Shown here piece by piece: positions 2,110 to 45,083 of a stretch of 64,000 bases of DNA; within the stretch, counting starts at the first letter, position 1, and every line of letters begins with the position of its first letter. The notes beneath the pieces are model-generated. The model searched no databases and was not told the DNA's origin. It was given only the letters and a program-made list of their open reading frames with translations. Location of the stretch: positions 1-64,000 of the IMG/VR virus record IMGVR_UViG_3300025598_000024; one strand, 5' to 3'. This DNA is from a virus. The position numbers and the translations under genes are program-made.

Positions 2110-2226
2110 TACTGCGCAGTACCAGTAAATTTCAACGCATTGGAGCAGTGAGCCGCCTGTGCATTGAATCTGGTACCACTCCGGTACCAGTGGGGCACCA
2201 CCCTTATATTATCCTGGAGGATAATC

Positions 2227-3177
2227 ATGGCTGACAACAACACTCCCAACGAGTTGTTGCAAGAGTTCCTCGCTAACCCTTTGGGTATCAGCAAGGACAC
2301 CGCTCAGGCAACTGAGCAAGCAGTGCCAGAATCCGTCTCGACGCACACCGCCGTGACGGCAGCCCCAACCACCCCTACCAAGGAGTACACCATGGAGCGC
2401 ATCTCCTACAACCCCGACGACTTCGGCGGTATCCCCGAGCCCGAGTGCTGGCGTGACCTGCGTGACATCATGAACGCAGGTGTCAACAAGGTCTTCCTCT
2501 CAGGCCCCCCAGGAATCGGTAAGTCCTTCGCTGGCATGTACTTCGGTGATGTCAGCCGTGGTGTCGAGCGCATGAGCTGCACCGAGGACATGACCAGTGC
2601 CGACGTTGACGGCTTCATGGGCATCACCAAGGACGGCACCTTCGACTGGCGTTACGGTGCTGCTAGCCGTGCCTGGATCAACGGCAGCCGTCTCATCATC
2701 GATGAGATCGACAAGGCTGGTAGCGATGTGCTCGCCAAGCTGTTGGCGTTCACCGACTCAGCTATGTCAGCTCGGTTTGTGATCGTTGCCACCGGCGAGA
2801 CCATCGTGCCTGCACCTGGTTTCTCCGTGGTGATGACCGCCAACATCACCAACATTGACGAGCTTGACTCGGACGCGCTCAAGGACCGTTTCCCTGCGCA
2901 CATCCAGATCAACGCTCCTCACCCGTCAGCTCTCATGCAGTTCCCTGAGAGACAGCGGATGTTGGCTGCCACGCTGATCAGCTCTCGTGCTGGTAACCTC
3001 AACGGTTACAGTCAGCGTGTGTCGCTGCGCAAGTTCGAGTACTTCAACCAGCTTCTTGCTGACCCGGCATTCGACCTTGACCGTGCTGCTGCGCTTGCGT
3101 TCGGTCCTCAGCTTGCTGAGGAGATCGTCCGTCACCTGCGCCTCGGCCTGCTCAACACCGGCGAAGTCAGCTTCTAG
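2227..3177 (+). CDS. MoxR/CbbQ-like AAA+ ATPase
   Basis: Walker A GPPGIGKS, Walker B LIIDEIDK, TAN sensor, ALKDRF arginine finger; GGAGG RBS. Confidence 0.9.
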   Translation: MADNNTPNELLQEFLANPLGISKDTAQATEQAVPESVSTHTAVTAAPTTPTKEYTMERISYNPDDFGGIPEPECWRDLRDIMNAGVNKVFLSGPPGIGKSFAGMYFGDVSRGVERMSCTEDMTSADVDGFMGITKDGTFDWRYGAASRAWINGSRLIIDEIDKAGSDVLAKLLAFTDSAMSARFVIVATGETIVPAPGFSVVMTANITNIDELDSDALKDRFPAHIQINAPHPSALMQFPERQRMLAATLISSRAGNLNGYSQRVSLRKFEYFNQLLADPAFDLDRAAALAFGPQLAEEIVRHLRLGLLNTGEVSF

Positions 3178-3179
3178 TC

Positions 3180-4709
3180 ATGGCTAGCGAATCTAACCCG
3201 CAAGAGCCTCGGATCACGCCACTACCCAACGTAGTTGCGTCATACCGTGAGGATCTTGACCCGTCACTGCAGTGGGAAGTTGTTCCCAGTGTAGGTGACT
3301 TCAACACCGGTGTAGACTTCGCTAAGGGAATTGTGTCTGTCCCCCTCTCGGGGGACGACCATTCCCGGCTGGTTCGGCTGCGTGAGATGGTGCGTCTTCG
3401 TATCGCACCCACTGACGACAAGCTGTTCAAGCACATTGCAAGTAAGCATGGGGGTATCGTTACTGAGCACACGCTACGGCTTGCTGACCTCGGTCGTATC
3501 AACGCTGTCACTCGTCAGTATGCTGAAGCATTCGAGATTCCAATCGAGCCTGACGGCAGCGAGAAAGTTCTTGGCAAGCGGTTGGCTACCACCAACACGC
3601 CTCAAGCCTGGAACAAGTGCGTCGAGTTCACCGCTCAATACTTTGGCACCAAGGCGTTCGACAGCTTTGCTTCTGGCGTGCGCAGTGTCAACAGTGACTG
3701 GAGCAGTGGCTTGCGCAAGCTAGCCAAGGAGCTCAGTAGCTCATTCGATGACGACGTTGAGTCCATCGGTAACACTAAGCGTTTGAACTACGGGGATGAT
3801 GTCTACGGTCCTAGTGGTTTCAATCACTCAGTGTACGCAGCCAGTAGTATTGCCAACTACATGGCTGATGGTTATCGTGCTCCGCAACAGATCCGTCAGG
3901 AACTTGCTGAGAGCGAGGACAACCGTGCTAAGAACTACGGTGAACAGGATCCGGAAGAGATCCTGCGTGGTTACGAGCGCATTGATCCCGAGAGCCAGCT
4001 TGACACCAGTGACCTGCCTGATGACTTTGAGTTCATAACAGATCCTGATGAAGATGAAGACAGCGGCGACATATTCGGCCCTCTCATCTTCAATCACGAG
4101 CTGCCTCTCACCGTCGAGGTCAAGGGCTACATGGCACGCAAGCGCCGCGCCAACATCATTGGTCGCAGCATTGTGTACCCCAGCCGTCGTTACACTGACC
4201 CTGAGATGCGCATGTTTGCTAACAAGATGCGTACAAAGGGTGGTATCTACCTGCTGGATGTCAGTGGTAGTATGCACGTGGATCAGGATGACATTGAGGC
4301 TATCGTTGATGTTGCGCCTGCAGCTCTCATCATGGCTTACAGTGATCCTGACAACGGCGGCGGCCTGCCAAATGCACACATCCTGGCCAAGCGTGGCTGG
4401 CGTGTTAAGGGCTTCAAGGACGTGCAGCGTGGTGGCAACGGTGTCGATGGCACTGCTCTTACCTGGGCTATCCGTCACAAGAAGCCTGGCGAGGACATCG
4501 TCTGGGTTACTGACGGCCAGGTGTTCGGCATCCAGGGTTACGGTGGTCACGACCTGTCCATCCAGTGTGCCAAGCTGGTCAAGAAGCACCGGATCATCAT
4601 GATCCCCAGCATGCGCGAGGCCATCGCTGCTTGCAGGACTGGTAAGCCAATGCGTCAGTTCAACAAGCCATCTGGTCGCGTGCGCGACGCCCTGCTCGGC
4701 AAGTACTAA
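3180..4709 (+). CDS. vWA-domain partner of the AAA ATPase
   Basis: MIDAS DVSGSM, GGNG, VWVTDG; directly follows the MoxR-type ATPase. Confidence 0.8.
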   Translation: MASESNPQEPRITPLPNVVASYREDLDPSLQWEVVPSVGDFNTGVDFAKGIVSVPLSGDDHSRLVRLREMVRLRIAPTDDKLFKHIASKHGGIVTEHTLRLADLGRINAVTRQYAEAFEIPIEPDGSEKVLGKRLATTNTPQAWNKCVEFTAQYFGTKAFDSFASGVRSVNSDWSSGLRKLAKELSSSFDDDVESIGNTKRLNYGDDVYGPSGFNHSVYAASSIANYMADGYRAPQQIRQELAESEDNRAKNYGEQDPEEILRGYERIDPESQLDTSDLPDDFEFITDPDEDEDSGDIFGPLIFNHELPLTVEVKGYMARKRRANIIGRSIVYPSRRYTDPEMRMFANKMRTKGGIYLLDVSGSMHVDQDDIEAIVDVAPAALIMAYSDPDNGGGLPNAHILAKRGWRVKGFKDVQRGGNGVDGTALTWAIRHKKPGEDIVWVTDGQVFGIQGYGGHDLSIQCAKLVKKHRIIMIPSMREAIAACRTGKPMRQFNKPSGRVRDALLGKY

Positions 4710-4715
4710 CAACCA

Positions 4716-4759
4716 GTACCCAGTGGGCCTGCAGCAATAACTGTTGGCTCACTGGGTAC
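4716..4759 (+). terminator. stem-loop after vWA gene
   Basis: GTACCCAGTGGGCC...GGCTCACTGGGTAC inverted repeat; no U tract. Confidence 0.4.
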
Positions 4760-4779
4760 ACAACCCGAAAGGTAACATC

Positions 4780-5076
4780 ATGACCACAAGCAAGCAAGAC
4801 TTCATTCGCATTGCTCAGGAAAAGATCGATGCTCACACTGACATCGAACAGCTGCGTGACTTGACAACCAAGTTGGTTACGCTGCTCGGTATTCAGGATG
4901 AGATGATCGAAGCCAACGACAAGGTTGTTACTCAGCTCAATAACCTGATCGACATGCAGAATACCATGATCAACAAGATGATTGGTCTGTGTGAGAGTTA
5001 CGATGTTCCATTGCCTGACAGCACACGGAACATTGCTAAGATGATCGCAGATCGTCCCAAGCAACCACAGCATTGA
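4780..5076 (+). CDS. coiled-coil hypothetical protein
   Basis: GAAAGG RBS; heptad-like pattern. Confidence 0.65.
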   Translation: MTTSKQDFIRIAQEKIDAHTDIEQLRDLTTKLVTLLGIQDEMIEANDKVVTQLNNLIDMQNTMINKMIGLCESYDVPLPDSTRNIAKMIADRPKQPQH

Positions 5077-5079
5077 GGT

Positions 5080-5550
5080 CAAGTGTCTTTGAGCCCAGAC
5101 ACTCACAAAACATGGCTCACACTCACCATCAGGGGAAGCTGATGGAGGTATCCAATACCTACGTACAACATTGGGGCATCTTGTGGCCGGTACAAGAAGG
5201 TGTGATCCTTTCTCACTAATACTTCCTAGTTGGTATGATACAAAGGAACTAGGGTCGCTCTGAGCATAGCGACTGGAATCCTGCTTGAGGTTATGCATCA
5301 TTCGTTTGGTGCATAACCCCTGCTGTATCAGCTAGGCAACCAATATGCCCGCAAGTATGGGTTATCACAACCATCGACGCCGCTCTACGGCTCTGCCTAG
5401 TTGTTACACACTCAACACCAGGGGAAGCTGGTGTAGGCTAACTGTTCCTTTATACAGATCCCAGCGGAGGGTGAGAAGCTAATCTTGTCAGTTGGATGAG
5501 ACATGAGAACTGACTAGGTGCTGGGCATCACCGAAGATAAACTGCCCACC
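5080..5550 (+). ncRNA. putative structured non-coding RNA region
   Basis: no credible ORF; many hairpins including two covarying GGGAAG-loop stems. Confidence 0.5.
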
Positions 5551-5571
5551 CCTACAACCAGGAGGTTAGCA

Positions 5572-6090
5572 ATGGCTGATGACTTCAGCGACCTTAACCT
5601 TGACATGGATGAAGCCTTTACTGTTCGCACACAGTTTGGCATTCACCTTGGCAAGCTCAAGGATTGGATTGTTATGATGGGTCAGTTGCCCATGGCAATT
5701 AACGACATGATGGGTGGATGCATGAAAGATGGCATCGATGGCATGAAGCCATGGACCAATGAAGAAGTTGTGTCTACCTTCTCAGACATGTATGACAATC
5801 TTACCAGAGGACTCGAGGTGCTTGCTGCGATGCTTCAGCAGTCAGCCGTCGATCTGTACGGTGAACCATTCTCAACCGATTCATTTGTGATCCCTGCCCT
5901 TGGCATTGGTCTCACAGTGGGTGGGCTTGAGCTCAGCGTCGACATGGACATCGACAAGGCTATCAATGATCTGCCTGAGGAAGTTCGTGACGCTGCAATT
6001 CGTGCACTCCGTGATGTGGTTGGCGATGATCGCCTGCCAGAGGAGTTTCGCGAGCGTATCCAACAGTTCCTTCGAGAGCAAGGAGAGTAA
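5572..6090 (+). CDS. hypothetical protein
   Basis: AGGAGG RBS before ATG 5572. Confidence 0.7.
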   Translation: MADDFSDLNLDMDEAFTVRTQFGIHLGKLKDWIVMMGQLPMAINDMMGGCMKDGIDGMKPWTNEEVVSTFSDMYDNLTRGLEVLAAMLQQSAVDLYGEPFSTDSFVIPALGIGLTVGGLELSVDMDIDKAINDLPEEVRDAAIRALRDVVGDDRLPEEFRERIQQFLREQGE

Positions 6091-6963: not shown

Positions 6964-7248
6964 ATGACTACAAGCATTGACAAGGATTTGATCAGGCCTC
7001 TGCTTGATTACAATCCTGGAGACTGGCGGGATCAAGCAGCCTGCAAAAACATGGACACAAATCTGTTCTTCACCGATACTGGTGATGGCGGTCAGGACCT
7101 GGACAAGATGCGCATTGCCCTGGAAGCCTGCCGCAACTGCCCTGTTGTAGCAGAGTGTTTGAAGTTTGGTCAGTCCAATGATCTCAGGTATGGTATCTAC
7201 GGTGGTCACCGTCGTACCCGCCGTGGTCAGTGGGTCAGCCTGATCTAA
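6964..7248 (+). CDS. whiB: WhiB family transcription factor
   Basis: W...AAC...LFF...C..CPV...C...GIYGG four-Cys Fe-S motif. Confidence 0.92.
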   Translation: MTTSIDKDLIRPLLDYNPGDWRDQAACKNMDTNLFFTDTGDGGQDLDKMRIALEACRNCPVVAECLKFGQSNDLRYGIYGGHRRTRRGQWVSLI

Positions 7249-11600: not shown

Positions 11601-12281
11601 TTGGCTGTGAAGCCAATCATCTGGGTTGCCAGACCCGACAAAACTGGCTGGAATGCCACTCGAGCTCGTGATCGTGTGGATTATTCCTTCTGTGTGTATC
11701 GCGAAGACTCTGCTACTGGCAATCCTGCCCGGCTGGTTGTTCGTGAGACCTATACCGATAAACCTGAGGCTCGCGCCAGAAAGGTTATCGGTGAGTTCAT
11801 GTTTGACACCGCCAAGCGTGCCAAGGATGCTGTGGTTAACTCTCTTATTATGTACAATGATGAGGCTCGCTACCCGCCTGCCACGGTTACGCGTGAGGTG
11901 TTGCGTGACAAGTTCTTGCGCACCATGCAGTGGGACAGCGAGCAGGACAGCCTGTTCTACAGCACTATGAACTGGTTTGACAGTCCGGTTAGTGGTGCTG
12001 GTGCTCGTCCTGTGCCAGTTGTCAACCCTGCACCAGAGACTGTCCCGCCAGCCACGTTGATGGATCAGGCCAACAACCAGTTTGCAGCTGATTCTGGGCA
12101 CAACATGACTGGTATTGACTCTATCGCAAGTGATGTGATTGAGGCAATGCAGATGCTTGAGCAGGTTGAGCAGATGGTTGAACCCGTGTTCGACCCCGAG
12201 AACTGGTCACCTGGTGATGCGGTGCCCGCAGGTTGGGCTATTATCGGTGGCAAGCCAGTCCAGTTCAGCTGGCCCAAGTAG
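11601..12281 (+). CDS. hypothetical protein
   Basis: AAGGAGG RBS, TTG start. Confidence 0.7.
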   Translation: MAVKPIIWVARPDKTGWNATRARDRVDYSFCVYREDSATGNPARLVVRETYTDKPEARARKVIGEFMFDTAKRAKDAVVNSLIMYNDEARYPPATVTREVLRDKFLRTMQWDSEQDSLFYSTMNWFDSPVSGAGARPVPVVNPAPETVPPATLMDQANNQFAADSGHNMTGIDSIASDVIEAMQMLEQVEQMVEPVFDPENWSPGDAVPAGWAIIGGKPVQFSWPK

Positions 12282-12347
12282 TAGCACACTCCTGGGCATG
12301 AGTATAAACTGCCCAATCATACAACAACTATCAAAGGAGCTTGTCCC

Positions 12348-44298: not shown

Positions 44299-44734
44299 CG
44301 GTTGCCATTATCCCTTCTGTACTAACCCTGTTTTCTTTCTTGATCCGGTTCTGCTGCAGCTCGATGTACAGCTTGTCCTGAATCCACTTGCTGCCCTTGG
44401 TGAAAGCTGTGACTGTCAATACCATGTTGTCCAGTTTGCCAGCATGCTTGTCAAACAACAGCTCGATCATTGGCCCAGCGTCAGCGCCGTAGCGTTCGAT
44501 AAAGCTCTTGAAGATAGCGATCTCCTTCACCCACTCTACAATGTACTCGAAGCCGTGTGCTTCCTTGTAGCGGTTGGCAAAATATAGCAGCAGCTCTTTG
44601 GCTGTAGGCGCTGCCAGCGATACTTCAGTTACCAGCTGTTGGATGTTGTCGGGCTGTTCCAGCTCTTCATAGTCATCATAGCTGTCGCTGTCGTAATCGC
44701 CGGGCTGTCCATCAAACGTTTTCTCGCTTACCAC
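44270..44734 (-). CDS. hypothetical protein, possible replication initiator partner
   Basis: immediately upstream of the DnaC-like gene. Confidence 0.6.
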   Translation of the reverse strand: MVSEKTFDGQPGDYDSDSYDDYEELEQPDNIQQLVTEVSLAAPTAKELLLYFANRYKEAHGFEYIVEWVKEIAIFKSFIERYGADAGPMIELLFDKHAGKLDNMVLTVTAFTKGSKWIQDKLYIELQQNRIKKENRVSTEGIMATDEFLNRFAI

Positions 44735-45083
44735 GGTTCGTGCTCCTTACTGCGTTGAACTCACTTGACCTGCCTGCAAACGTACTGATCTTATCATTGA
44801 TCCAGTTGCGCGTCTCACTGTCATAGTCATCCAGGTCACGGCCTGTCGGACCAATCGCTGACACATTACCACGGCTGATCAGCATGAAGCGCCACTTTAC
44901 CTCAGGCACTTCACGGTCTAGCTCTTCGTGCCCATAGATCTGAATCCAGTTCTCGTCCAGCCCACACAAGAAACCCTCGTAGATGAAACCATCGCTGAAC
45001 ACTCTGATCTCTTTCTTGCGTGATGACATGATGGCCAGATTCCTTTCGAACATCTGATCATCGGGTTGTGCTAACTTACTCAT
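44712..45083 (-). CDS. possible Sm/Hfq-like fold protein
   Basis: IRVF.DG..YEG.L.GLD..WI.I...MLISR.NVSAI resembles Sm1/Sm2. Confidence 0.45.
   Translation of the reverse strand: MSKLAQPDDQMFERNLAIMSSRKKEIRVFSDGFIYEGFLCGLDENWIQIYGHEELDREVPEVKWRFMLISRGNVSAIGPTGRDLDDYDSETRNWINDKISTFAGRSSEFNAVRSTNRGKRENV

What the first reader, a model, noticed from the sequence alone, without database searches (positions are those of the whole stretch)
5080..5550. Candidate new structured RNA with a duplicated, covarying GGGAAG-loop hairpin
This is the largest ORF-free gap in a densely coded arm. Two copies of CACACTCA-[7-bp stem]-GGGAAG-[stem]-AGG sit about 290 nt apart. Their stems differ but both pair perfectly (CCATCAG/CTGATGG at 5126-5145; ACACCAG/CTGGTGT at 5415-5434), which indicates compensatory change. 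Other hairpins lie nearby: AGTGTCT/AGACACT, CCTAGTT/AACTAGG, GTCGCT/AGCGAC, GGTTATGCA/TGCATAACC, AGCTAGGCA/TGCCTAGTT. Downstream CTTCCT (5222) and TTCCT (5445) could pair with the loops as pseudoknots. I do not recognise an Rfam family. It may be two tandem sRNAs, a protein-sponge RNA or a ribozyme/riboswitch.
Basis: partly seen in the sequence, partly recalled or inferred. Interest (0 to 1): 0.7.

Follow-up and report, generated by a model that had tools for sequence, protein, structure and literature searches.

The report
Modular hairpin-pseudoknot RNA array in phage
The gene-free gap holds a real, densely folded RNA built from repeated hairpin and pseudoknot modules; related uncultured lake phages carry it at the same spot in 1 to 6 copies, it matches no catalogued RNA family, and its job is unknown.

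Summary
The two hairpins with a GGGAAG loop (5126-5145 and 5415-5434) belong to a family found in about 60 syntenic loci of related uncultured phages. The hairpin is always on the + strand, occurs only in this one intergenic region, and is present 1-6 times per genome.

A selection that ignored pairing gave 49 distinct copies with 32 different stems. These had 310 Watson-Crick pairs, 33 G-U pairs, and no A-C pairs or mismatches, so the structure forms in + strand RNA.

The gap is a chain of modules:
- a pseudoknot starting 5 nt after the upstream stop codon
- the loop-invariant hairpin (H1), each followed directly by a covarying short helix (H2)
- further hairpins and a pseudoknot that have homologues in relatives
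- a terminal H-type pseudoknot (5517-5547) ending 24 nt before the next start codon

The terminal knot covaries in both stems. It is widespread at gene junctions of unrelated phages and resembles the plant-virus coremin (Xrn1-resistant) motif.

There is no Rfam match and no conserved small ORF. The closest relative lacks the array, so it is accessory.

Function is untested. My best guess is a nuclease- and ribosome-resistant RNA scaffold that displays several docking hairpins. This scan had already noted the family on another lake phage.

The parts
4744..5076 (+). Upstream ORF (110 aa, coiled-coil-like, no family). Its stop codon is 5 nt before the first pseudoknot.
   Evidence: The orthologue in L133 abuts the downstream gene with no array between them.
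5082..5119 (+). PK1, a predicted H-type pseudoknot. S1 is AGUGUCU (5082-5088) with AGACACU (5097-5103). Loop UGAGCC (5090-5095) pairs with GGCUCA (5114-5119). The A-rich linker is CACAAAACAU.
   Evidence: Read directly from the sequence. No homologue is close enough to test covariation, so this is inferred from the sequence and from the same architecture in other modules.
5118..5125 (+). Conserved 5' flank CACACUCA of hairpin H1a. CUCA is nearly invariant in the family.
   Evidence: alignment A2: C5 is invariant; T6, C7 and A8 are at least 90% conserved.
5126..5145 (+). H1a: 7-bp hairpin CCAUCAG/CUGAUGG with hexaloop GGGAAG.
   Evidence: (48 bits with model R1).
5146..5160 (+). H2a: hairpin AGGUAU-CCA-AUACCU, directly abutting H1a.
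   Evidence: At family level 53 of 63 modules have a helix of 4 bp or more here: AGGU/ACCU 19, AGGA/UCCU 14, AGGU/GCCU 9, AGUG/CACU 3, AGGC/GCCU 2.
5180..5196 (+). Predicted hairpin CUUGU...ACAAG.
   Evidence: Minimum-free-energy fold only. No comparative support.
5202..5216 (+). Pa: hairpin GUGA-UCCUUUC-UCAC.
   Evidence: Covaries in homologous blocks (UUGA/UCAA, GCAA/UUGC, GUAA/UUAC).
5225..5253 (+). Pb: hairpin CCUAGUU / AACUAGG.
   Evidence: 97% of cells paired and 3 pairs changed on both sides (CCUGGUU/AACCAGG, CUUGGUU/AACCAAG, UUGUGUU/AACACAA).
5254..5287 (+). Pc pseudoknot. S1 is GUCGCU/AGCGAC. Loop UGAGCA (5261-5266) pairs with UGCUUG (5282-5287). The linker is UGGAAUCC.
   Evidence: S1 is 93% paired and S2 97% paired in 7 homologues, but S2 shows only invariant or one-sided (G-U) changes. 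The pseudoknot is therefore plausible but not proven.
5289..5318 (+). P-long: 9-bp hairpin GGUUAUGCA / UGCAUAACC with loop UCAUUCGUUUGG.
   Evidence: The same position in relatives holds GCCUAUGCA/UGCAUAGGC, GCCUAUGUAUC/GAUACAUAGGC, CCCAUAUAAC/GUUAUAUGGG and CCCGUACA/UGUACGGG.
5330..5402 (+). Long-range stem AGCUAGGCA / UGCCUAGUU enclosing a 55-nt domain. It ends 4 nt before the flank of H1b.
   Evidence: (I1). Relatives have an analogous closing stem before the next hairpin. No direct covariation for the window's copy.
5407..5434 (+). Flank CACACUCA plus H1b: 7-bp hairpin ACACCAG/CUGGUGU with loop GGGAAG.
   Evidence: (43 bits).
5435..5449 (+). H2b: AGG-CUAACUGUU-CCU, followed by UUA.
   Evidence: Family-level covariation of this helix. 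The window's own copy has only 3 bp.
5484..5517 (+). Hairpin CUUGUCAGUU / AACUGACUAG.
   Evidence: (I8). No comparative support.
5517..5547 (+). T-PK, the terminal H-type pseudoknot. S1 is GGUG (5517-5520) with CACC (5529-5532). S2 is GGGCA (5523-5527) with UGCCC (5543-5547). The linker is GAAGAUAAAC.
   Evidence: Alignment A3 (37 copies): 97.4% paired, and 8 of 10 pairs changed on both sides. Model R2 scores it 38.7 bits. Widespread in other phages and genomes.
5560..6090 (+). Shine-Dalgarno AGGAGG (5560-5565) and the downstream gene (ATG 5572, 172 aa, no family).
   Evidence: Orthologue in L133 is 49% identical. In relatives the gene after the array belongs to one of two unrelated families.
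12287..12331 (+). Second copy of the T-PK pseudoknot, outside the array. It lies 5 nt after the stop of gene 11601-12281 and about 20 nt before GTG 12348.
   Evidence: (48.8 bits).
2164..4709 (+). Conserved upstream gene pair: an AAA_5 (MoxR/CobS-like) ATPase (2164-3177) and a roughly 500-aa VWA-type protein (3180-4709). It served as the synteny anchor.

Best explanation
The 495-nt gap encodes a compactly folded RNA segment on the + strand. It is one member of a family of arrays 0.5-1.6 kb long. Related large uncultured phages carry one such array per genome at the same place in what looks like their early arm. A WhiB gene and a phage Hfq-like gene suggest actinobacterial hosts.

The array is a chain of small modules. 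Each H1 hairpin has a freely covarying 7-bp stem but a nearly invariant loop (GGGAAG) and invariant flanks (CUCA, AGG). A short helix follows it directly. Further hairpins and H-type pseudoknots make up the rest. The last pseudoknot is a motif that very many unrelated phages place at gene junctions.

Most likely working (inferred):
1. The array is transcribed together with the flanking + strand genes.
2. Its pseudoknots, like the similar plant-virus coremin knot, act as mechanical roadblocks to a 5'-to-3' exonuclease (RNase J in Actinobacteria) and/or to ribosomes. This would make the array long-lived and shield or insulate the message behind it.
3. The invariant GGGAAG loops are repeated docking sites for one trans-acting partner, a protein or an RNA. 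The stable RNA would then work as a multivalent decoy or scaffold.

Shown: the RNA-level structure, the strand, the family, the modular make-up, and the accessory nature of the array. Inferred: transcription, stability, and the partner.
For: Structure and strand: 49 distinct pattern-selected hairpins gave 310 Watson-Crick pairs, 33 G-U pairs, 0 A-C pairs and 0 mismatches across 32 stems, all on the + strand. All 7 pairs change on both sides. The + strand folds with z = -3.9 against -2.5 for the - strand.

Specificity: model R1 hits only this intergenic region in 181 kb plus 357 kb of loci and in six whole phage records, 140 hits in all, every one on the gene strand.

Family and copy number: 1-6 hairpins per array. 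Synteny behind the MoxR-type ATPase and VWA protein holds throughout.

Invariant loop: GGGAAG in 55 of 63 modules, and the A at loop position 5 is never changed.

Pseudoknots: the terminal knot is 97.4% paired, with 8 of 10 pairs covarying. Of 100 distinct hits in other viral contigs, 97 keep the unconstrained stem, using 12 pair combinations. The median position is 6 nt after a stop codon and 29 nt before the next start. Its sequence GUC..GAC-GUUAAAC matches coremin GUCCGAAGACGUUAAACUAC. Coremin stalls Xrn1 and scanning ribosomes (PMC10520033), and a Watson-Crick pseudoknot variant of it has been described (PMC10321173).

Not a leader tied to one gene: the closest relative, L133, joins the same two genes with 15 nt and no array. 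In other relatives the array precedes either of two unrelated gene families.

No promoter or terminator signal above background. The first knot starts 5 nt after the stop codon and the last ends 24 nt before the ATG, which fits co-transcription.
Against: Resistance to a bacterial nuclease has never been tested for this kind of knot, and the coremin motif needs a second hairpin directly behind it, which I do not see after 5547. No partner for the GGGAAG loop was identified, and the hairpin was not found in 151 sampled actinobacterial genomes, so it does not look like a mimic of a host RNA. The window's own copies of PK1, the 5180 hairpin and the 5484 hairpin have no comparative support. The array is missing in the closest relative, so whatever it does is dispensable there.
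Confidence: 0.4

Rival explanations
1. The array is purely cis-acting. It is an intercistronic insulator and leader whose only role is to set the stability and translation of the gene(s) behind it, and it has no trans-acting partner. In that case the repeated hairpins would be structural spacers.
For: The terminal knot sits 24 nt before the ATG. This is typical of the widespread knot, which has a median distance of 29 nt to the next start. The array lies exactly between a stop codon and a Shine-Dalgarno sequence, and there are no promoter or terminator signals of its own.
Against: The orthologous downstream gene in L133 has neither the array nor the knot. Arrays precede two unrelated gene families. 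A spacer role does not explain a hexaloop that stays invariant while the stems change freely, or why copy number varies from 1 to 6.
Confidence: 0.27
2. The array is processed into separate small RNAs, one per unit. Each would be capped at its 5' end by a pseudoknot, and each would act on its own as a set of tandem sRNAs.
For: Units in relatives are bounded by copies of the terminal knot.
Against: The window's array has only one terminal-type knot, and it is at the 3' end. No terminators separate the units. The units differ in content, and helices abut across unit borders.
Confidence: 0.12
3. The hairpin loops present a codon-like triplet to tRNA anticodon loops. Loop positions 2-4 would be the triplet (GGA), A5 would pair with U33, and R6 would pair with the pyrimidine at position 32. 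The array would then bind, sequester or shield particular tRNAs (Gly-UCC). This would resemble the terminal specifier loop of the ultrashort Stem I in actinobacterial T-boxes.
For: All loop variants keep A5 and a purine at position 6, and vary only at positions 1-4: GGGAAG 55, AGGAAG 2, GAGCAG 2, GAGAAG 1, GAGCAA 1, GGAAAG 1, GAACAG 1. Each variant would match five bases of a standard anticodon loop. These phages invest heavily in tRNAs: 9 in the window and odd tRNAs next to the ATPase gene in relatives.
Against: There are only 8 variant loops, so the pattern could equally reflect what a protein tolerates. The T-box model in Rfam does not match. A UGGN element for the tRNA 3' end is not conserved: UGGA in the window reads GGGA or AGGA in relatives. 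The host and its tRNAs are unknown. The T-box analogy rests on my own recollection of the literature, not on a test here.
Confidence: 0.07
4. The region holds a riboswitch or a self-cleaving ribozyme, possibly in tandem.
For: Compact pseudoknots with A-rich linkers are typical of small aptamers.
Against: No Rfam family comes near threshold in the window or in four relatives. The best overlap was the fluoride model at 11.7 bits against a gathering score of 34. The modules are heterogeneous. The downstream genes are not related by function. The terminal knot occurs at hundreds of unrelated gene junctions, which does not fit a ligand-specific switch.
Confidence: 0.05
5. The repeats act in DNA (replication origin, packaging site or protein-binding iterons), or the gap hides small protein genes.
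For: Repeats in a large non-coding gap near a contig end. Two ORFs of 45-48 codons can be drawn.
Against: There are 33 G-U pairs and no A-C pairs, so the helices exist only on the + strand. Protein-binding repeats conserve sequence, not pairing. The two small ORFs find relatives only across the 9-22 residues that overlie the hairpin motif.
Confidence: 0.03

Closest known systems
Coremin motif (xrRNA-C) and its Watson-Crick variant xrRNA-WCC of plant, fungal and invertebrate RNA viruses (PMC6546385, PMC10520033, PMC10321173)
   Same: The terminal knot's family consensus, GUC-CUGGGUAU-GAC-GUUAAAC-UGCCC, shares with coremin (GUCCGAAGACGUUAAACUAC) the short first hairpin, the GUUAAAC linker, and pairing between the loop and the stretch after the linker. 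Both sit in intergenic or untranslated RNA.
   Different: Here the loop has 8 nt and stem 2 has 5 covarying Watson-Crick pairs. I see no obligatory second hairpin behind it. The window's copy has GGUG/CACC instead of GUC/GAC and a longer linker (GAAGAUAAAC). The host is a bacterium without Xrn1, and nuclease resistance is untested. The cited papers do not mention phages (0 occurrences). The knot accounts for only about 31 of the 495 nt.
Flavivirus 3' UTRs (tandem xrRNA and dumbbell modules giving sfRNA)
   Same: Both are strings of duplicated, pseudoknotted modules whose number varies between related viruses. This is the model for a nuclease-resistant stable RNA that then binds host factors. 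(From my own knowledge.)
   Different: No sequence or fold relationship. Here the virus is a DNA phage, the array lies between genes rather than at a 3' end, and no decay product has been shown.
GOLLD (RF01998) and ROOL (RF03087), large ornate RNAs of phages and prophages
   Same: All are large, structured, phage-borne RNAs of unknown function with variable modular parts.
   Different: The Rfam models do not match. This array is a chain of small repeated units of variable number, not one large fixed fold.
Sponge RNAs with repeated hairpin-loop motifs (CsrB/RsmZ for CsrA) and type III antitoxin repeat RNAs (ToxI; phage pseudo-ToxI)
   Same: Both carry several copies of one short recognition element on a single RNA, and copy number varies. 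This is the model for multivalent docking. (From my own knowledge.)
   Different: The loop is GGGAAG on a 7-bp stem, not the CsrA consensus, and as far as I know Actinobacteria lack CsrA. The units are 150-300 nt and heterogeneous, not near-identical 36-nt repeats. No toxin gene follows.
Lambda nut sites (boxA plus boxB hairpin) and the phage T4 gene 32 pseudoknot operator
   Same: The nut site pairs a conserved 8-nt box with a hairpin whose loop is purine-rich and invariant. The gene 32 operator is a pseudoknot followed by UUAAA-type sequence upstream of a start codon. (From my own knowledge.)
   Different: No sequence match. The copies here are tandem within one gap. No N-like or gp32-like partner was identified.

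Membership tests
Any Rfam 15 family | Score at or above the family's gathering threshold | tested here: not met
   The window at gathering threshold gave only 9 tRNAs elsewhere. In 4900-5750 at E up to 10, the best overlap was Fluoride at 11.7 bits against 34. Four relatives at E up to 1 gave nothing in their arrays.
GGGAAG-hairpin array family of lake phages (this report; also scan note e1-5937657) | CUCA, a 7-bp covarying stem, a GGGAAG-type hexaloop, then AGG, on the gene strand | tested here: met
   Both window copies score 48 and 43 bits with model R1. Covariation.
GGGAAG-hairpin array family of lake phages | A single array per genome, downstream of the MoxR-type ATPase and VWA gene pair | tested here: met
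   Window. Relatives.
Coremin / xrRNA-C (for the terminal knot only) | Short first hairpin (3-4 bp; GUC/GAC in the type sequence, other Watson-Crick pairs allowed) | tested here: met
   GGUG/CACC in the window. GUC/GAC is the commonest form in the family, with covariation. Definition from PMC10520033.
Coremin / xrRNA-C | Loop consensus YGAD or YGNNAD (longer loops tolerated) | tested here: inconclusive
   The loop is CUGGGCAU (8 nt). It starts with Y and ends with A-D, but its second base is U, not G.
Coremin / xrRNA-C | Conserved linker GUUAAAC(UAC) after the first hairpin | tested here: met
   The family consensus is NUUAAAC. The window's copy reads GAAGAUAAAC, which is longer and keeps only the 3' AUAAAC.
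Coremin / xrRNA-C | Loop-to-linker interaction (three Watson-Crick pairs in xrRNA-WCC) | tested here: met
   Five pairs (GGGCA/UGCCC), 99.5% paired, with compensatory variants GAGCA/UGCUC, GGUCA/UGACC and AAGCA/UGCUU.
Coremin / xrRNA-C | A second hairpin directly after the linker | tested here: not met
   5548-5571 (ACCCCUACAACCAGGAGGUUAGCA) holds no hairpin. Gene-proximal copies in relatives are followed by an unstructured CA-rich leader.
Coremin / xrRNA-C | Stalls a 5'-to-3' exoribonuclease | not testable with these tools
   Needs an in vitro digestion assay.
T-box riboswitch (actinobacterial ultrashort Stem I type) | Match to the T-box model, and a conserved UGGN bulge for the tRNA 3' end | tested here: not met
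   No RF00230 hit. UGGA at 5275-5278 is not conserved and reads GGGA or AGGA in relatives.
Ro60/Y-RNA system (considered because of the roughly 500-aa VWA protein upstream) | TROVE domain in the protein | tested here: not met
   No Pfam or PDB sequence match. The nearest Atlas clusters are VWA, CobT_C and VWA_CoxE types.

The most novel reading that the evidence does not exclude
This is a DNA-phage counterpart of flaviviral sfRNA. Coremin-like pseudoknots would stall the host's 5'-to-3' exonuclease (RNase J) on the early transcript. The array would then survive as a stable non-coding RNA whose 1-6 invariant GGGAAG hairpins capture a host or phage partner. The partner could be specific tRNAs, bound by codon-anticodon-like loop kissing, or the phage's own Hfq-like protein. 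That would make exonuclease-resistant RNA a strategy shared by eukaryotic RNA viruses and bacterial DNA viruses.
Probability: 0.15. Interest if true: 0.9.

Novelty: new variant of a known kind. Interest (0 to 1): 0.68.

Why it matters
Large, conserved, structured RNAs of phages are rare, and nearly all of them (GOLLD, ROOL) still have no known function. This family adds one with an unusually clear grammar. Stems vary freely, one loop is kept invariant, copy number changes between close relatives, and the array ends in a knot that hundreds of unrelated phages use at gene junctions.

The invariant loop gives a concrete handle for pull-downs. The knot gives a direct, cheap test: RNase J digestion of wild-type, broken and restored stems. 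That test asks whether bacteria-infecting viruses use exonuclease- or ribosome-blocking RNA knots as plant and animal RNA viruses do.

The phages are uncultured and probably infect abundant freshwater Actinobacteria, which have no Hfq of their own. The phage brings an Hfq-like protein, so the array is also a candidate substrate for that chaperone.

Tried and rejected
- **Rfam:** tested at the gathering threshold and at permissive thresholds, on the window and on relatives. Nothing.
- **tRNA/tmRNA scan:** nothing in the gap.
- **Isolate phage collection:** blastn and tblastn found no match.
- **Downstream protein as anchor:** found no relatives. The VWA protein worked instead.
- **Ro60/Y-RNA idea for the upstream VWA protein:** rejected. 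No TROVE domain was found, and the nearest clusters are VWA/CobT-like.
- **Host mimicry:** the hairpin model found nothing in 3 plus 151 sampled actinobacterial genomes. This means "not found in those searched", not "absent".
both partners are already used in covarying helices, and variant loops show no matching change in cis.
- **CUCA pairing with UGAG:** the idea that the CUCA flank always pairs with a UGAG in an upstream loop holds in several units but not all, so I dropped it as a general rule.
- **UGGA in the Pc linker as a tRNA 3'-end binder:** not conserved.
- **Small ORFs 5073-5219 and 5345-5482:** only the hairpin motif is conserved.
- **Riboswitch-like domain beside the terminal knot in MAGs:** withdrawn. 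The conserved sequence upstream of the knot there is a tiny ORF.
- **Literature searches:** searches for the array, the motifs and phage coremin-like knots found no description.
Full report
**1. What is in the window**

The gap runs from 5077 to 5571. The upstream ORF stops at 5074-5076. AGGAGG is at 5560-5565 and the ATG at 5572. The window is the first 64 kb of a 105-kb viral metagenome record estimated to be 71% complete. It carries a WhiB gene at 6964-7248, nine tRNAs at 50-55 kb, and a Pfam Phage_Hfq protein at 44712-45083 on the - strand. An actinobacterial host is therefore likely, but this is inferred.

Only these two copies exist in the whole 105-kb record.

**2. The hairpin is a conserved RNA element**

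An exact-pattern scan of viral contigs found the same flanks and loop with different, perfectly pairing stems. A looser scan found more. I then anchored on the conserved roughly 500-aa protein upstream, which brought in 14 viral and 45 metagenome loci.

A covariance model of the hairpin (R1) gave 39 + 101 hits in these loci. All are on the gene strand, and all lie in the one intergenic region behind that protein. In five relatives' whole records (54-133 kb), all hits cluster in a single stretch per genome, with 1-6 copies.

To avoid selecting for pairing, I collected every CTCA-N7-GGGAAG-N7 in these loci:

| Measure | Result |
|---|---|
| Distinct instances | 49 |
| Different stems | 32 |
| Watson-Crick pairs | 310 |
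| G-U pairs | 33 |
| A-C pairs | 0 |
| Other mismatches | 0 |

Every one of the seven pairs changes on both sides. G-U without A-C means the helix exists only in + strand RNA, the same strand as all flanking genes.

The loop is GGGAAG in 55 of 63 modules. The variants are AGGAAG, GAGAAG, GAGCAG, GAGCAA, GGAAAG and GAACAG, and all keep the A at position 5. Stems that drift freely beside a fixed loop and fixed flanks argue for sequence-specific recognition of the loop. That step is inference.

**3. The gap is an array of modules, not two hairpins**

Directly after each hairpin comes a short helix, found in 53 of 63 modules. It covaries: AGGU/ACCU, AGGA/UCCU, AGGU/GCCU, AGGC/GCCU, AGUG/CACU. It is often followed by UAA.

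The block 5198-5322 has homologues in about ten distinct relatives:

| Element | Support (unless stated) |
|---|---|
| Pa (GUGA/UCAC) | Covaries where the block is present |
| Pb (CCUAGUU/AACUAGG) | 97% paired, three pairs changed on both sides |
| Pc (GUCGCU/AGCGAC) | 93% paired; its loop UGAGCA can pair with UGCUUG (UUGAGC/GCUCAA in relatives), 97% paired but without compensatory changes |
| 9-bp hairpin 5289-5318 | Replaced in relatives by other perfectly pairing sequences |

The first hairpin of the gap (5082-5103) can form the same kind of H-type pseudoknot. Its loop UGAGCC pairs with GGCUCA at 5114-5119, across an A-rich linker. This is read from the sequence only.

Relatives carry further module types and arrays of up to about 1.6 kb.

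**4. The terminal pseudoknot**

The last element (5517-5547) aligns with 36 other copies. Stem 1 flanks a loop, and the loop forms stem 2 with the sequence behind an NUUAAAC linker. Across the alignment 97.4% of cells pair and 8 of 10 pairs change on both sides. A second copy lies at 12287-12331, 5 nt behind a stop codon.

This knot is not specific to the clade.
- Its consensus pattern hits 64 loci in prokaryotic genome contigs, where about 35 hits are expected by chance for the bare pattern. However, 49 of 65 keep the stem that the pattern does not constrain.
- Of 100 distinct viral hits, 97 keep that stem, with 12 pair combinations. In 76 a long ORF ends within 60 nt upstream (median 6 nt after the stop). 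In 80 an ORF starts within 150 nt downstream (median 29 nt).

Earlier notes of this scan (e1-370971 and others) had likened such a knot to the plant-virus coremin motif. I checked the papers.
- The coremin sequence is GUCCGAAGACGUUAAACUAC.
- It needs a short first hairpin, a loop of YGAD or YGNNAD type, the linker, and a second hairpin.
- It stalls Xrn1 and scanning ribosomes (PMC10520033).
- A variant with Watson-Crick loop-linker pairs exists (PMC10321173).
- Neither paper mentions phages.

The resemblance (GUC..GAC-GUUAAAC plus loop-linker pairing) is real. The second hairpin is missing here, and nuclease resistance is untested. So the knot may work like coremin, but I do not file it as a member.

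**5. Context**

The array is accessory. The closest relative, L133 (62% identity in the anchor protein), has orthologues of both flanking genes separated by 15 nt, with no hairpin and no knot. In other relatives the gene behind the array belongs to one of two unrelated families.

In all six larger records the array lies 3.5-10 kb from a contig end.

Promoter- and terminator-like sites are no more frequent than in shuffled sequence. Together with the tight fit between a stop codon and a Shine-Dalgarno sequence, this suggests co-transcription with the neighbours. That is inferred.

The upstream pair is an AAA_5 ATPase plus a VWA-type protein. I found nothing that links them functionally to the RNA. 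The phage Hfq-like protein is conserved in the three most complete relatives.

**6. What it is not**

- No Rfam family matches.
- There is no tRNA or tmRNA in the gap.
- There is no conserved small ORF.
- It is not a DNA-level repeat, given the strand asymmetry.
- The hairpin was not found in the actinobacterial genomes sampled.

**7. How it most likely works**

What is shown: a family of + strand RNA arrays with covarying helices, an invariant hairpin loop in 1-6 copies, and several pseudoknots. One of these pseudoknots is a pan-phage gene-junction element.

What is inferred: the knots make the RNA hard to degrade or to translate through, by analogy with coremin. The array therefore persists, and the loops recruit one partner in several copies.

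I put about 0.4 on this scaffold or decoy reading, 0.27 on a purely cis-acting insulator, and 0.12 on separate processed sRNAs. Smaller odds go to tRNA kissing, a riboswitch or ribozyme, and DNA-level or coding readings. That the region encodes a functional structured RNA at all I hold at about 0.95.

**8. Novelty**

Neither the array nor a phage coremin-like knot appears in Rfam 15 or in the papers I could search. This scan has already noted the same array family on another lake phage (e1-5937657) and the knot on many genomes. This window is therefore a further member, not the first sighting within the scan.

Noticed in passing
window 12287-12331 (+): A second copy of the terminal pseudoknot lies outside the array. 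It starts 5 nt after the stop of gene 11601-12281 and ends about 20 nt before GTG 12348. A weak third candidate sits at G000 85859-85926 (13.5 bits), outside the window.
   Followed up: partly
window 44712-45083 (-): A 123-aa protein matches Pfam Phage_Hfq (PF23874, 37.4 bits against a cut-off of 24.2). Homologues at 51-55% identity are present in the three most complete related phage records. It is a candidate RNA chaperone for the array, but no link is shown.
   Followed up: partly
L133 1600-2060: The closest relative lacks the array. The orthologues of window genes 4744-5076 and 5572-6090 are 15 nt apart. This is a clean presence/absence polymorphism.
   Followed up: yes
L123 136-208, L124 546-616, L125 3584-3656, L126 3478-3549, L127 3584-3655, L128 3586-3657: Relatives carry one tRNA-like gene just upstream of the MoxR-type ATPase gene. 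ARAGORN gives it unusual or unreadable anticodons: tca 'SeC', ata, att, and a 2-base anticodon. These could be suppressor or remodelled tRNAs. The window has none at that place.
   Followed up: no
L128 8080-8120; L117 1290-1345: Sequences resembling a tRNA T-arm (GGUUCGAACCCACC; UUAGGUUCGAUUCCUAA with a 7-bp acceptor-like closing stem) stand at the end of one array and just behind a terminal-type knot. ARAGORN does not call them. An earlier scan note (e1-5362877) describes a phage pseudoknot RNA that ends in a tRNA-like element.
   Followed up: no
L210, L211, L220, L229, L234, L237 (Rrf2 downstream); L189, L225 (GRDB-like downstream); also L178, L182, L227, L232: In MAGs of Omnitrophota, Planctomycetota, Deltaproteobacteria and others, the same knot overlaps the end of a tiny conserved ORF of 22-27 codons (...AHC[KS][ED]GC...SWV*). 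The knot's UCC-UGG-GUA-UGA encodes SWV plus the stop. The ORF lies upstream of Rrf2 regulators or GRDB-like genes. The micro-ORF is unexplained.
   Followed up: partly
L206 5124-5146; L207 875-897: The knot also occurs inside very large tRNA arrays (more than 15 tRNAs in 8 kb). In L207 it sits 8 nt upstream of a tRNA. A drum RNA (RF02958) lies nearby in L206.
   Followed up: no
L061 232-298 (-): A sub-threshold Hammerhead_II match (28.6 bits against a gathering score of 37), about 7 kb downstream of that phage's array.
   Followed up: no
window 5572-6090 (+): The protein behind the array has a faint hit (E = 0.17) to VMAP-M1, a vWA-MoxR-associated protein region. The hit is below any threshold. 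I note it only because a MoxR-type ATPase and a VWA gene lie just upstream.
   Followed up: no
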